Part shown: one piece after another, positions 56,822 to 64,000 of the stretch
How the letters are laid out: each line of letters starts with the position of its first letter
How positions within the stretch are numbered: position 1 is the stretch's first letter
NCBI RefSeq assembly: GCF_033153115.1
Contig: NW_026889785.1
Location: forward strand, 7,068,001-7,132,000
Origin: Saccostrea echinata
Lineage: Eukaryota
Direction of reading: 5' to 3'
Length of the DNA stretch: 64,000 nucleotides
Program-made: the position numbers and the translations under genes
The notes under the pieces: model-generated
The model's database searches: none
What the model was told of the DNA's origin: nothing
The model's input: only the letters and a program-made list of their open reading frames with translations

Positions 56822-57052
56822 TCTTCATGACATGAAATCGAAAAAGTTCATCATTTTCGAGAAATACGGCACCACACCATTTACATTTTTGAGTTAAAAG
56901 GACCTCTTCGTTTTCTTCTTCTTTAACAATTCTCCGTAATTTAGCTGGAATGAGGATTTTAATTCTTCCCTTCTTTCGTGGGTATATTTATGAAATCGGA
57001 AAGTTTCCTCATTTTTAAACCTTCTCGGGCAATATGGGCATTGAAAAACCAT
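56822..57052 (-). pseudogene. Small C2H2 zinc-finger gene, cut by the Gypsy LTR
   Basis: MVFQCPYCPRRFKNEETFRFHKYTH, one frameshift, then QKCKWCGAVFLENDELFRFHVMK. Confidence 0.75.
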
Positions 57053-57360
57053 ATCCTATTTTTTTTAGAAGAAAAACTAAAATAATTAGTCATTTGTCTG
57101 GTTGTTGATGTTTTTAAAAGAAAAAATATATTTATATACCGCCGTCCCGTTTTTTCCCCGTTGGGAATGGAAATCAGAGAGAAATGGGGGAGGGGATCAT
57201 CCCTCCCCATTTTAAATGGAAATCATTAAAAAGGGGGTAGCTTGAACAAATGAAAAAAAAATGAGTGTGTGTGCTCTCTGTCTCGCGCGCGCGTTGTAAC
57301 TTCTGATGTTGCTTCCCCCGCCCCTTTGTCAAAAAATGATCAACCTAGTACTTATGCAAG

Positions 57361-58146
57361 ATGGCGTTGAACATAGTCTTGACAGTTTCTGTGTTCTCTC
57401 TCTTGCTCTCTGGAATGTTGTCTGCCACCCCAGAATGCACACAACTGACGGTGTGTTGTGAGGGGGGTGTGAATTGGAAAGGTGAATGTGAATGCATTCG
57501 TTTTTTTAGGTTAGGGGAAATGTTTTCTTCCATGCCGAATTTGAAATCGGCACCCGGGAGTAACCTTTTAATTCTCGGTACCTGACTAATTTTTTGTTTT
57601 TAGTGGATATTTCAAGAGACCACAAGGACGCCGATGGTAAGATCTCTCTCTTTCTCTCTCTCTCTCTTTGGGAGAGGGAGTATCTTTCATAAATATTTAG
57701 GTAAAAATTCTCACTCCTTTTATAAAAACACAGTCAGCCTCAATCCACTACACGTGATGTTATTTTTTTTATTTAAAACATTATTATTTAACGACCTCTT
57801 TGTGTAAGGTATTAAATTACTGTTTTTTTTAGAGCAGATGACGCCGGGACAACTCGTATGGTCTTGATCTCCCACTGGATTGATTTGACCACCTATGGTA
57901 AATATTTTTTTCTCTTTCACGGCTCTATCCCCCCATCCTCCCCCCTTTTTTTAACAGTCTAAGCCTTTTTTTCAGGTGAAGGCAAGACCACCAGGAGACA
58001 GGTTTTACTTTTAATATTATATTAATCCTTCACAATTTTTTTTTACAGGCTGGTATTTTATTTCAATGTAACATTTGTTTTTTTTTTCTCTCTCTCTCTC
58101 CAGGGGAAGTCACTATGCCCACGTCGGCAATTCGTGCCATTTCTAA
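57361..58146 (+). other. Putative small multi-exon gene for a secreted Cys-containing protein (likely decayed)
   Basis: Signal-peptide-like MALNIVLTVSVFSLLLSGMLSA followed by TPECTQLTVCCEG, then a series of AG/GT-bounded micro-exons near 57604, 57833, 57976 and 58103. Confidence 0.4.
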
Positions 58147-58204
58147 TAAGTCTTTATTTACACTTTTAATTTACAGGTTTTTTTTAATAATAGTAGTAAG
58201 GGGG

Positions 58205-58620
58205 ACAGAGAACAGTCAGTCTACACTCAGGATGACGTCATGGGTTTTTCCAGAGACCCCCCCCCCCACAAAGGTCAAAATAGGGGTCACAGTCAAGGGT
58301 GGAGTCTACAGTCAATGACGTCATGGGTTCCCTTAGTGCAAAGAGTGAGTCTACAGTCAAGGAGTCTACAGTCAATGACGTCATGGGTTACCTTAGTGCA
58401 AAGAGTGAGTCTACAGTCAATGACCTCATGAGATAGTTCACAGTCAAGGGTGAGGCGTTTACAGACACACCCAATATATGACGTCCTATATTTTAGATGA
58501 TAACCACTATGTGACATTCTATATTATGGGTGTAACGGTTACACCCACAATATTATATAACAACCACTGTAACTTCTATTATAGTATGGGCGTTAACAGT
58601 TACACCCTGAGTGCGATTCA
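58205..58620. repeat. Repeat block with CRE palindromes and a perfect 21-bp palindrome
   Basis: Repeated AGTCTACAGTCAA and ATGACGTCAT units. TGGGTGTAAC-G-GTTACACCCA at 58527-58547, with a degenerate copy near 58587. Confidence 0.8.
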
Positions 58621-59075
58621 GTATAAAATGCAGCAAGCGTTTTCGGGATAAATTATTAATGAACGAGTTCTAATGCTAGAAACTTGACAAAAGGTATGTG
58701 AACATTTGTAGAATATTTATTATCGATACTGTAAGCAATACAAAAAAAAAACACTGAATATCAACAGACAACATAAGTTTCTCCGAATACATAAATAAGA
58801 GTAAATCTAAGATATATGTGTTTCATACTAAGTTGCAAGCCTTAACTTTCTATGGTGTGGTATATAATGTACACATTTTCAATAAAATACAAAGAAAAAA
58901 CTTAGAGGGATAATTATTTTAAATTATAATTTATAATTAACATTTTTATGTGCCAGAGTAAATATTTTTATGGCATTGTATACAATGTACACAATGGTGC
59001 ACAACGCACACGATACGTAGTGCTTTTCAATAAAAATACAAAAAAAAAACACTTAGAGGGATGCTCAATTGAAAA

Positions 59076-60773: not shown

Positions 60774-61880
60774 TATGTTGGGTTGTCCTAAGCTTAATGG
60801 TAATTATTCTGCTGATGGTAGAGTGAAGGAAACAGCTCGTATTTAAAGGTATTCGCTTTTGGGTGTGATTCTAATTCGTGATTTTACGATATTTTTAATA
60901 CATATATATATTTTTTTTTAAACTACCGCTGCGTCTTGACATATCTGCGCGACACACCTGCGTGATCTGCGCATTCACTGTGTCTTTAATCAGGTGAAAT
61001 CGTGTTGAAGATATTATGTTAATTTATAATAATTGTTCTAATTTTCTACACCTGTACCTTAATGTGACCTCTTTTTAATTCAATTTATCATATTTACTCG
61101 GCTGTGTAAAGTACCTAGGTCATTGTTTTCCATATATTAAGTATAGAACTATGATTGTACATGTGGTATAAAACAAATTAAATAAGTCATGTAATTCAGC
61201 AGTAAATTATTTTTATCTACCTACACGAAAAATATTTTATATCGTGTACAACATATATATACATCGATTGCGGATAAAAAAATTAGGATTCAATTTCCTA
61301 TATTAGATATTAAATTGTGTTATCATAGTGTTATCATACGAGTGTGTTTATCAGGTTGACGTATCAAACCATTGTCTCTATTAAAAAAAAAGATTGTTTT
61401 GATTAATAAATGATGGATAAGAGAATCTCATGAAAGATTCAGTGCCCCCCCCCCCTCTAAATAATTTTGCTGATATATAGATTACTATAGAAAAAATAGC
61501 TACTATATGCTTGTGACCCCTCAATAAAAACGTCTGATGACTTTTTTTTGCTTGTCAATGAATTTTTGGTCGTTGATAGTGCCCCACAGCTGAGAATTTA
61601 TGGCTGCCCCCCCTCCCCCCCCCCACGGACCTGATCCGTGTTAACATGCGAATAAAAGAAGGCATTTTATCGAGATTTTAAATTACACCACTCTTTCAAC
61701 TTAGTTATTATGTGTATGTCTACATGAGGGTCCTTAATTGATAAAATAAATAAATACATTTTTTTTTTATTAATGAATGTTTTGGTCTCCATCGTTTTGT
61801 CGTATACCCCATCACGTGACCGAAAATCCGTGCAGAATTCGCGCCAGTTGAGGATGGAGACCTGGAAGGAGAAAGGTGTA

Positions 61881-63283
61881 ATGGCCGCAATAAAGGTGTT
61901 GGTCTTCGTGTTTTTAAGATTTACTGGAGTAGTTTACGGAGATAGTCAGTGTAAACCTTGTGTTGGATTCTTAGGTGTTTTTAACTGCAAACACGTTTCA
62001 TATGAGTGTGTGTTCATCCAAGGAGTAAATAACGTGCGTGAATCCGGGTTTTTGACTGCAAAACCCGCATTGTTGGGCTACCCATCGGATGGCCCATCCG
62101 TCATCCTGTTATACGGGACCGAAACGGCAATGTCTGTGAAGGTGAGTATTATTTATTTGCATATATGAAGAAAAAAAATTAGCATTGTTTTTTTAGGTGC
62201 AAGCTTTCAGTTGTGAGTGTTTCTTACTACTTCCGTAAAAGTTTTGAGGCAATGTTATCAAATAATTATAGGGTCCCAGTGTGATTTTATATAACTTTGC
62301 TGATATTAATAAGAAAAGAAATTTAACCGGACAATCCTTGAGATCGGGTTCGAAATACGTGCAGGGAATGTGAATATGAACTTTGAAACGTTCCCTTTAC
62401 CATACATCCGGAACACCTCGGGCATTTCACATTTTTCATTATCCTTTGAACAAATGAAATCGTCGTATAGACCCGTTAATTACATTAATACCACAAATGG
62501 GATATATACTTACGGAATATTTAAACCTATTTAGTCGATTAGTCCCAACCCGTTTCACGAAGGCATTCTTTCTGTGTATTGTTAATGTAGCTAATTAAAC
62601 TAGGGTAAATATCTGTACTGTGTATACATAAACTATAGGAATAATTCCGCGAGATCCGAATGTCCCAAGGCTTGGCATGATTTTTTTTTTTTTTTTAAAA
62701 AAGGTTATTGTAATATATTTTAGTTTACCTACTGAATTTACATTTATATTTTAAAAAAAATTGTTTTTTCATTTAAGTAACACACATTTCTTTTCTACAA
62801 CAGATGCCCCAAGAATTTCCCAGCCTGGTGGAACAGTAACTGTTGCCCCAACCATACAACCCGGTGGAACAATAAAGAGGACACACACACGTTCAGTGTT
62901 TACCCAAGGTAAACAAAAATTATGAAGTTTATTGTACTTGTATATTTTTTTTTAAATTGTTTTTTTTAAGTAACACAAGCATTTTTTTTTCTACAACAGA
63001 TGTCTCCACAAGTTCCCAGCCTGGTGGAACAGTAACTGTTGCCCCAACCATACAACCCGGTGGAACAATGAAGAGGACACACACACGTTCAGTGTTTACC
63101 CAAGGTAAAAAAAAATTATTAAGTTTGTTATACTTGTATATTTTTTTTTAAGTAACACAAACATTTTTTTCTACAACAGATGTCCCCACAATTCCCAGCC
63201 TGGTGGAGCAGTAACTGTTGCCCCAACCATACAACTTGGTGGAGCAATGAAGAGGACACACACACGTTCAGTGTTTACCCAAG
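61881..63283 (+). CDS. Putative secreted/surface protein gene with tandemly duplicated mucin-like exons (probably continues past the window; possibly a pseudogene)
   Basis: MAAIKVLVFVFLRFTGVVYG-DSQCKPC... Repeated exons at 62804-62908 and 63000-63104 (105 bp) and 63180-63283 (104 bp) encode SQPGGTVTVAPTIQPGGT.KRTHTRSVFTQG. Confidence 0.55.
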
Positions 63284-63313
63284 GTAAAAAAAATTAAGTT
63301 TGTTGTACTTGTA

Positions 63314-63957
63314 TCAGGTCTGTCACAATCTCTTGATTAAGCTATATAGCTTTATTAAGCTATTCAGAATAGCTTGATTTAGCTATTTTATCAGACTTTT
63401 TTCTCAAATGTGTTAATTTCCAAGTATGTACAAAAAGTCGCACCTTGGTGCAGTGATGATATTCAACCGTGAACTCTTATGAAAATAATGCATGTAAAAA
63501 TCACTCATCAAATTGTGTCTCCTTAAGAGACTTTGTACTCAAAGTTTTAAAAGTTTTGGGGCTATATAAAGCAATCGATACAGTAACTTCTTCAATGAAA
63601 TTATAAACGAGGCCAATTATGGTCAACAAGATAATTGATTGGTAATAATTCAGTACAATGAGAAGCAATCATACTTATCCATGCCTCAACGCACAGAAGG
63701 TAGTGTACAGTTACCCAAACAATGGAAAATCATCTTTTGCTTAAAAGTATTCATATGCTGCAATGTTAGAACTATCTTTGATTTGGGTTGTTGATTTGAT
63801 AACCCATTTTACATATATGAATAGTGAAATACTTGCGACTTTTTGTCTATTTTGTACAAATAACATTTTTGTGAAAACCTGCATATAAATAGCTTTATCA
63901 AGCTATATAGCTATTTAAAGCTATATAGCTTAACGAAGAGATTGTGCTGGACCTCTG
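63314..63957. mobile_element. MITE in a TA target site within a repeated intron
   Basis: Left AGGTCTGTCACAATCTCTTGATTAAGCTATATAGCTTTA matches the reverse complement of the right end, AGGTCCAGCACAATCTCTTCGTTAAGCTATATAGCTTTA. The neighbouring intron copies show the empty site TACTTGTATAT. Confidence 0.85.
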
Positions 63958-64000
63958 TATATATTTAAAAAAATTATATTTTTTAAGTAACACACAACAT

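What the first reader, a model, noticed from the sequence alone, without database searches (positions are those of the whole stretch)
56822..64000. Compact cassette of small, alternately oriented orphan genes: candidate unclassified virus-like or giant mobile element
Seen: about 7 kb almost free of the usual TE debris holds four tightly packed units. These are a C2H2 zinc-finger gene (-), a signal-peptide Cys-protein gene with micro-exons (+), an SP-repeat/coiled-coil gene (-), and a signal-peptide mucin-like gene (+). They form two divergent pairs that converge on a central repeat/palindrome block, and the introns are very short. Inference: this density and content (regulator, surface proteins, palindromic repeat region) resemble the accessory region of an endogenous DNA virus or giant transposon more than ordinary oyster genes. 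No hallmark gene (polB, capsid, integrase, helicase) is visible in the window, so the classification stays open.
Basis: partly seen in the sequence, partly recalled or inferred. Interest (0 to 1): 0.7.

Follow-up and report, generated by a model that had tools for sequence, protein, structure and literature searches.

The report
Nested Polinton fossils with spliced glycoproteins
This stretch is the broken remains of two virus-like Polinton (Maverick) elements, one inserted into the other; intact relatives of its small genes are spliced accessory genes, including a surface glycoprotein of no recognised fold that likely helps the element deal with oyster host cells.

Summary
The 7 kb is not one cassette. 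It is two nested Polinton/Maverick fragments.

Bases 56822-58191 are a family-B remnant. The 'zinc-finger gene' is the cut-off 5' end of its protein-primed DNA polymerase; the Cys micro-exon gene is a broken type I membrane gene. The 'palindrome block' at 58192 is the left terminal inverted repeat (AGTAGT...) of a family-A element inserted into that gene's intron. The A arm carries the SP-repeat gene and a mucin-stalk membrane gene; its polymerase starts 2.4 kb past the window.

Sibling copies have both termini, exact 6-bp target-site duplications (9 of 10 A pairs), polymerase, integrase, capsid and ATPase. All four window genes are damaged.

What is new lies in the family. Its accessory genes are intron-rich, under purifying selection, and have homologues in Saccostrea and Magallana. 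The Cys-rich ectodomain matched no known fold. It likely works like adenovirus E3 surface proteins (untested).

The scan already reported this genome's Polintons on other DNA, including the SP-repeat gene (e1-9187278).

The parts
55852..56821 (+). 3' LTR of a Gypsy-type retrotransposon (pol at 52138-55704); its end sets the left edge of the finding
   Evidence: Many genome hits span query 152/153-1122; RT, RNase H and integrase-like ORFs upstream (read from sequence)
56822..57052 (-). 5' stub of family-B protein-primed DNA polymerase (two C2H2-like fingers), frameshifted and cut off at the LTR
   Evidence: tblastn of a family-B pPolB ORF, aa 3-33, hits 56924-56832; same ATG reads on into the polymerase region in other copies; zf-C2H2 below cut-off and PF03175
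57361..58145 (+). Family-B type I membrane glycoprotein gene, exons 1-6, pseudogene. Exon 1 is frameshifted and lacks its donor; exon 3 splice sites and the exon 6 donor are lost; exon 5 is shortened out of frame; the transmembrane exon is displaced by the insertion
   Evidence: Exon-by-exon comparison of 9 copies; RefSeq homologue XP_062600343.1 has the same exon chain plus TM
58186..58191 (.). 6-bp target site (AATAAT) of the family-A insertion, inside the intron after exon 6
   Evidence: Empty site in copy G000:C5:7633178 continues past the same hexamer into intron and TM exon
58192..58387 (+). Left terminal inverted repeat of the family-A Polinton, starting (AGT)2, with 60-bp subrepeats and TGACGTCA at 58233, 58316, 58376
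   Evidence: 95% identical over 196 nt to a right terminus elsewhere; TIR about 210 nt in a two-ended copy; termini and TSDs
59076..60752 (-). Family-A five-exon Ser/Pro-repeat gene (basic NLS-like run, SP repeats, C-terminal amphipathic helix); the exon-2 donor kept by five other copies is lost here
   Evidence: Exons 60752-60748, 60516-60427, 60233-60138, 59955-59902, 59685-59076; one contig of run X3 skips three of these introns; donor state
61443..61626 (.). High-copy dispersed repeat inserted between the two A genes
   Evidence: About 30 hits at 85-90% identity on many contigs among the 40 candidates scored
61854..64000 (+). Family-A type I membrane glycoprotein gene: signal peptide and Cys domain (exon 1, to 62141), Thr-rich 105-nt exon repeats (62804-62908, 63000-63104, 63180-63283), TM and tail exon beyond the window (about 64697). 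Frameshifts in exon 1 (near 62040) and in the third repeat
   Evidence: tblastn of a homologue gives two frames; homologues
63315..63955 (.). MITE-like insertion with 48-nt terminal inverted repeats inside an intron

Best explanation
The region is a decayed nest of two Polinton/Maverick elements: the left end of a family-A element sits in an intron of a family-B element's membrane-protein gene, and the small genes are spliced accessory genes of these elements, the membrane proteins likely acting at the surface of host cells that carry an active element. Shown: the junction, termini, 6-bp duplications, core genes in sibling copies, conserved exon chains, purifying selection on the ectodomains, and damage to all four window genes. 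Inferred order: B integrated; A integrated into B with a 6-bp duplication; a Gypsy LTR came to abut B's polymerase 5' end and the rest of B was lost; A lost everything after part of its polymerase; a block of more than 45 kb was then duplicated. Inferred function: host Pol II transcribes and splices the accessory genes, which give a type I glycoprotein (small disulfide-bonded beta domain on an O-glycosylated stalk). It most likely binds a host surface or immune protein, as adenovirus E3 proteins do, and is not needed for copying within the genome. The SP-repeat protein is likely nuclear and likely engages transcription kinases or Pol II tail readers.
For: Termini: 9 of 10 right A termini with a left terminus within 100 kb share an exact 6-bp TSD (8 independent sites). 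B termini: 4 of 5 exact, 1 with one mismatch. Core genes in sibling copies: PF03175, rve plus chromo, DJR-like (E 0.003), Pox_A32 (E 0.001). Empty site. pPolB-A fragments at window-equivalent 66362-69693. Of 12 genome hits to the A ectodomain, 10 have pPolB 2.7-5.4 kb downstream on the same strand. Ectodomain dN/dS 0.16-0.33 (B exon 1, three pairs) and 0.03 (one A pair, 30 synonymous vs 7 non-synonymous changes); SP gene 0.12 against two diverged copies. Spliced contig for the SP gene. Spliced database models in S. cucullata and M. gigas match the exon chains. Five near-identical, dispersed B copies of about 17 kb gave no ectodomain hit, so spread does not need the gene.
Against: No spliced read support for either membrane gene: the three runs showed only unspliced pieces there, and the database models are predictions. 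No binding partner, no fold match (best Z 2.9) and no Pfam family above cut-off, so the E3-like role rests on architecture and analogy. Other A ectodomain pairs gave dN/dS 0.32-0.65, stalk exons 0.06-1.6, and one SP pair 1.45 (a damaged copy), all weaker than MCP controls at 0.05-0.07. Two of 12 ectodomain hits had no polymerase in the 20 kb fetched. The right end of this A copy was not found, so its own TSD pair is not seen. Run X3 is of unrecorded kind.
Confidence: 0.8

Rival explanations
1. The membrane proteins are virion or entry proteins (attachment or envelope glycoproteins), as proposed for the nematode Maverick fusogen MFUS-1.
For: Signal peptide plus single TM; fixed position just upstream of pPolB in 10 of 12 hits; MFUS-1 precedent (bioRxiv 10.1101/2022.07.12.499685, passages).
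Against: The ectodomain is about 70 aa against 866 aa for MFUS-1, and no fusogen fold was matched. It diverges fast (36-48% identity between subfamilies against 87-96% for full-length family-A MCP matches). It is absent from one dispersed B subfamily.
Confidence: 0.15
2. The spliced genes are recently captured host genes riding as neutral cargo.
For: Intron-rich structure; intron-bearing host cargo is known in nematode Mavericks; many copies are broken.
Against: Purifying selection between element copies whose synonymous sites are near saturation. No non-Polinton parent turned up: 16 hits among 1.84 billion representatives, all of the same small type where fetched, and 10 of 12 genome hits are polymerase-linked.
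Confidence: 0.1
3. One unclassified cassette with two divergent gene pairs around a regulatory palindrome.
For: Three copies 96-98% identical carry the whole 7 kb in the same order.
Against: Those three share over 30-45 kb of flanking TE mosaic, so they are a segmental duplication. All diverged copies carry the left and right halves separately, split at 58192.
Confidence: 0.02

Closest known systems
Polinton/Maverick elements (Orthopolintovirales, 'adintoviruses'), as described for vertebrates in PMC8097293 (section 7 and passages read)
   Same: (AGT)2 termini in family A, 6-bp TSD, 17-24 kb, intronless core in two converging modules (pPolB and ATPase facing integrase, capsid genes), accessory region at the end.
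   Different: The accessory genes are multi-exon, whereas that paper saw no introns in intact vertebrate elements. Family B ends in (TGC)2, not among the three end motifs listed there. Family-B pPolB starts with two C2H2-like fingers. This locus itself is a non-autonomous fossil.
Nematode Mavericks with cargo genes and MFUS-1 (bioRxiv 10.1101/2022.07.12.499685, passages read)
   Same: Intron-bearing genes in a variable arm next to the left TIR; a signal-peptide plus TM protein on the element.
   Different: Their cargo are proteases and kinases, and the membrane protein is an 866-aa herpes gB-like fusogen. Here it is a small Cys domain on a micro-exon mucin stalk with no matched fold.
Human adenovirus E3 membrane proteins such as E3/49K (PMC4858740, PMC11321000, PMC13437282; search listing and abstract starts only)
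   Same: Variable, fast-evolving transmembrane proteins of a related pPolB/DJR virus lineage; functional analogy only.
   Different: No sequence or fold similarity was detected; host targets here are unknown.

Membership tests
Polinton/Maverick | [quoted passage not shown] | tested here: met
   PF03175 above cut-off in A and B sibling copies; only fragments at this locus
Polinton/Maverick | rve integrase with chromodomain | tested here: met
   PF00665 and PF00385 in both families; not present in the window or the next 60 kb
Polinton/Maverick | Long TIRs with simple-repeat ends | tested here: met
   A: (AGT)2, about 200 nt, starts at 58192; B: (TGC)2, 177-263 nt alignments in sibling copies
Polinton/Maverick | 6-bp target-site duplication | tested here: met
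   A 9 of 10 pairs; B 4 of 5 exact; only the left copy is seen for the window insertion
Polinton/Maverick | Double-jelly-roll capsid and A32-like ATPase | tested here: inconclusive
   PF21738 E 0.003 and PF04665 E 0.001, both below curated cut-offs; gene order and sizes fit; 96 MCP matches in the genome
Polinton/Maverick | Adenovirus-like protease and minor capsid | tested here: inconclusive
   ORFs of 155 and 140 aa lie in the expected slots but hit nothing in Pfam; the 155-aa ORF also hit nothing in PDB sequences; the labels are from recall
Polinton/Maverick | Intronless genes (as reported for intact vertebrate elements) | tested here: not met
   Core ORFs are intronless but accessory genes are multi-exon; nematode cargo gives a precedent, so this marks a variant, not exclusion
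Three-finger (Ly6/uPAR, activin receptor) ectodomain | LU disulfide pattern and three-finger fold | tested here: inconclusive
   Atlas feature hits 0.78-0.81, lead only; six Cys in the domain; not listed among structure matches of two models
Adenovirus E3 CR1 proteins | CR1 domain homology | tested here: inconclusive
   No Pfam or PDB sequence hit; analogy by architecture only
Adenovirus E3 CR1 proteins | Binds and modulates host immune receptors | not testable with these tools
   No candidate partner known
Ordinary host gene cluster | Single-copy, syntenic, outside TIRs | tested here: not met
   Dispersed copies inside TIR-bounded elements; synteny in other oysters could not be checked

The most novel reading that the evidence does not exclude
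Oyster Polintons are working viruses that carry their own spliced, micro-exon-built family of surface glycoproteins with a new small disulfide-bonded beta fold. This would be an invertebrate counterpart of the adenovirus E3 immune-evasion region, diversified by an arms race with oyster immunity and shared by at least two element families.
Probability: 0.3. Interest if true: 0.72.

Novelty: new variant of a known kind. Interest (0 to 1): 0.42.

Why it matters
Whether animal Polintons form infectious particles is still open. A surface glycoprotein kept under purifying selection, yet dispensable for copying within a genome, is what one expects of an element that meets host immunity between cells. 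The 70-aa ectodomain is small enough for direct structure and binding tests. For the scan, the locus is a caution: nested TE fossils can mimic a designed gene cassette.

Tried and rejected
Fold searches of two AlphaFold2 models (pLDDT 77.3 and 83.5) against PDB and BFVD gave nothing at E<=0.001 and best Z 2.8-2.9. This does not show that the fold is new.

The Atlas three-finger lead was not backed by those searches; the Atlas search with the B ectodomain gave scores <=0.78. Profile comparison of A and B ectodomains gave probability 2%, E 0.025: homology between them is not shown, despite a shared 'REI' word.

The IMG/VR hit L125 is a phage tail region, a chance match. Rfam on four loci: 0 hits. 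An exact pattern for the expected right junction of this A copy: 0 matches.

Targeting of A into B: 3 of 22 A termini flank B sequence, but all three were found through B-containing queries, and 0 of the other 19 do. Local clustering explains the nesting as well.

Runs X1 and X2 (shares 0.07, 0.05) gave only unspliced or repeat pieces; RNA support for a family-B copy remains untested. The tail word NTRSK resembles a nucleosome-anchor word recalled from cytomegalovirus IE1; passages of PMC9040877 did not show it, so it carries no weight.

My exon-4 anchor picked a wrong acceptor; one search shows the window's exon 4 is intact. The SP exon-2 query was in the wrong frame and is used only for position.
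Full report
Location and copies. The window is G000:C36:7068001-7132000. The finding has two copies at 96-98% identity (C5:2557890, C36:7818126). They share the surrounding TE mosaic over window-equivalent 37034-83963 and 42328-73803 (upstream ends not reached), so they are a segmental duplication or redundant haplotype, not transposition. More diverged copies match either 56833-58153 or 58192 onward, never both in this order.

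Left edge. Bases 55852-56821 are a Gypsy LTR with many genome copies ending at query 1122.

Family B remnant (56822-58191). The 'C2H2 gene' starts at 57052 (minus strand). In other copies the same start reads through both fingers and on. At C27 the frame is open for 615 aa to the end of one fetched piece and 931 aa in the next, the latter with PF03175 at E 3.5e-58. In the window the frame shifts between the fingers and ends at the LTR. No more of this polymerase or any B core gene lies in the window or the next 60 kb; the only hits are cross-matches to the A polymerase. Family-B copies with both ends are 16.9-19.7 kb (27.5 kb with inserts), end in TGCTGC, and have exact 6-bp duplications in 4 of 5 cases.

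Family B membrane gene. Nine copies were aligned, one of them truncated after exon 2. Internal exons are 33-66 nt, phase 1, GT-AG, and length changes between copies are mostly whole codons. RefSeq XP_062600343.1 (Saccostrea cucullata) has the same chain: signal peptide, Cys domain, Thr-rich stalk, TM, short tail. Copies hold two candidate TM exons. The window copy is a pseudogene (see parts). Exon-1 dN/dS is 0.16, 0.22 and 0.33 in three pairs; stalk exons give 0.06-1.6 over seven pairs.

The junction. The repeat block begins AGTAGTAAGGGG at 58192, preceded by AATAAT. The copy at C5:7633178 runs through the same hexamer into intron and TM exon with no insertion. Of 11 right A termini fetched, 10 have a left terminus within 100 kb and 9 of these share an exact 6-bp duplication; two of the nine are the same site duplicated. 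Two-ended copies without large inserts are 20-24 kb and carry CARD-PC4, rve-chromo integrase, capsid, ATPase and pPolB. (AGT)2 ends and 6-bp TSDs are the standard Maverick signature (PMC8097293, section 7 and passages). A and B capsid proteins are 53% identical. Of 96 capsid matches (a lower bound; some are split genes), 78 lie on four contigs holding 9% of the assembly (my count; lengths). Nesting is therefore expected from clustering; I found no unbiased sign of targeting.

SP-repeat gene. It has five exons on the minus strand. One contig of run X3 (kind not recorded, 1482 nt, close to this copy) skips three of the four introns and retains the first. The exon-2 donor present in five other copies is lost in the window and its two duplicates, and deleted in one more. 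dN/dS against two diverged copies is 0.12, against a closer one 0.28, and 1.45 against a damaged one. An earlier scan note (e1-9187278) reads the repeats as Pol II tail mimics. The window copy has one YSPxSP; I did not test binding.

Family A membrane gene. Exon 1 encodes a signal peptide and a Cys domain, followed by 105-nt Thr-rich exon repeats and, past the window, a TM and tail exon. Exon 1 is frameshifted here: homologues align in two frames. Polymerase fragments follow at window-equivalent 66362-69693, then tandem repeats. Of 12 genome hits to the domain (the window's broken copy was not among them), 10 have pPolB 2.7-5.4 kb downstream, one has only a TIR nearby and one has neither within 20 kb. 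A profile of 8 sequences found 16 of 1.84 billion representatives. Clusters were looked up for 10 of them; the species-named members are Magallana gigas models, one with the full SP-Cys-mucin-TM layout. The context of these database proteins could not be seen. AlphaFold2 gave an all-beta domain (pLDDT 83.5, pTM 0.70) with no structural match above Z 2.9.

Mechanism. Shown: a twice-truncated nest of two Polintons whose small genes are damaged here but conserved in the family. From established knowledge: Polintons copy themselves with pPolB primed at the TIR ends and integrate with an rve integrase. Inferred: nuclear transcription by the host allows spliced accessory genes, and the glycoprotein is displayed on the cell and binds a host surface or immune protein (about 50% for this role, 15% for a virion entry role). 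Five near-identical dispersed B copies (C27, C29, C30, C36:2.47 Mb, C5:2.94 Mb) gave no ectodomain hit, and in the one I read (C27) other sequence replaces the gene just before its start. That fits an accessory role.

Literature. Polintons are abundant in bivalve genomes (bioRxiv 10.1101/2025.04.19.649669, passages). Vertebrate Mavericks were reported intronless; nematode ones carry intron-bearing cargo and a fusogen (passages). Term look-ups in PMC8502044, bioRxiv 10.1101/2024.03.25.586562 and PMC11131425 found no mention of 'transmembrane' and no passage on spliced accessory genes (passages only). Searches listed no paper on spliced membrane glycoproteins of mollusc Polintons. The library lacks most subscription journals and Repbase. 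I opened no supplements (bioRxiv ones are closed), and gene tables there could hold such genes. Adenovirus E3 papers were seen as listings and abstract starts only.

Verdict. The locus is an ordinary fossil of a known superfamily, and the scan has already flagged this genome's Polinton accessory genes. The spliced Cys-mucin glycoprotein family and the (TGC)2 ends are real and apparently undescribed variants. Interest 0.42.

Noticed in passing
P0001 (XP_062600343.1): The record's longest contig is 19,682 bp, almost the length of the 19,684-bp family-B element at G000:C40:5566225-5585908. It may be a free element assembled as its own scaffold, or coincidence.
   Followed up: no
L071:2804-3358 (G000:C36:2471804-2472358): A further Polinton-like element carries a BIR plus RING (IAP-type) gene between pPolB and ATPase.
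   Followed up: partly
L048:2036-3019: Family A encodes a CARD-PC4 fusion next to its right TIR; family B has PC4 without CARD.
   Followed up: partly
L021:699-1100, L049, L063 terminal exons: Cytoplasmic tails of three diverged A glycoproteins end in a shared NTRSK word although the rest of the tail differs.
   Followed up: partly
G000 contigs C5, C6, C33, C36: 78 of 96 capsid matches lie on four contigs with 9% of the assembly, a Polinton-dense compartment.
   Followed up: partly
L062:8112 and L066:3284: Two more family-A termini sit in the 5' part of a family-B polymerase gene; the first shares the window's target hexamer.
   Followed up: yes
L070:2700-3500 (G000:C40): A second micro-exon gene, Ser/Pro/Thr-rich, appears to follow the B membrane gene toward the TIR.
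   Followed up: no
window 56825-56834: A 5-bp direct duplication (CATGA) beside the LTR end, absent from other copies, may be a footprint of another insertion.
   Followed up: no
window 51459-52150: A 168-bp tandem repeat with many genome copies abuts the truncated 5' end of the Gypsy pol.
   Followed up: no
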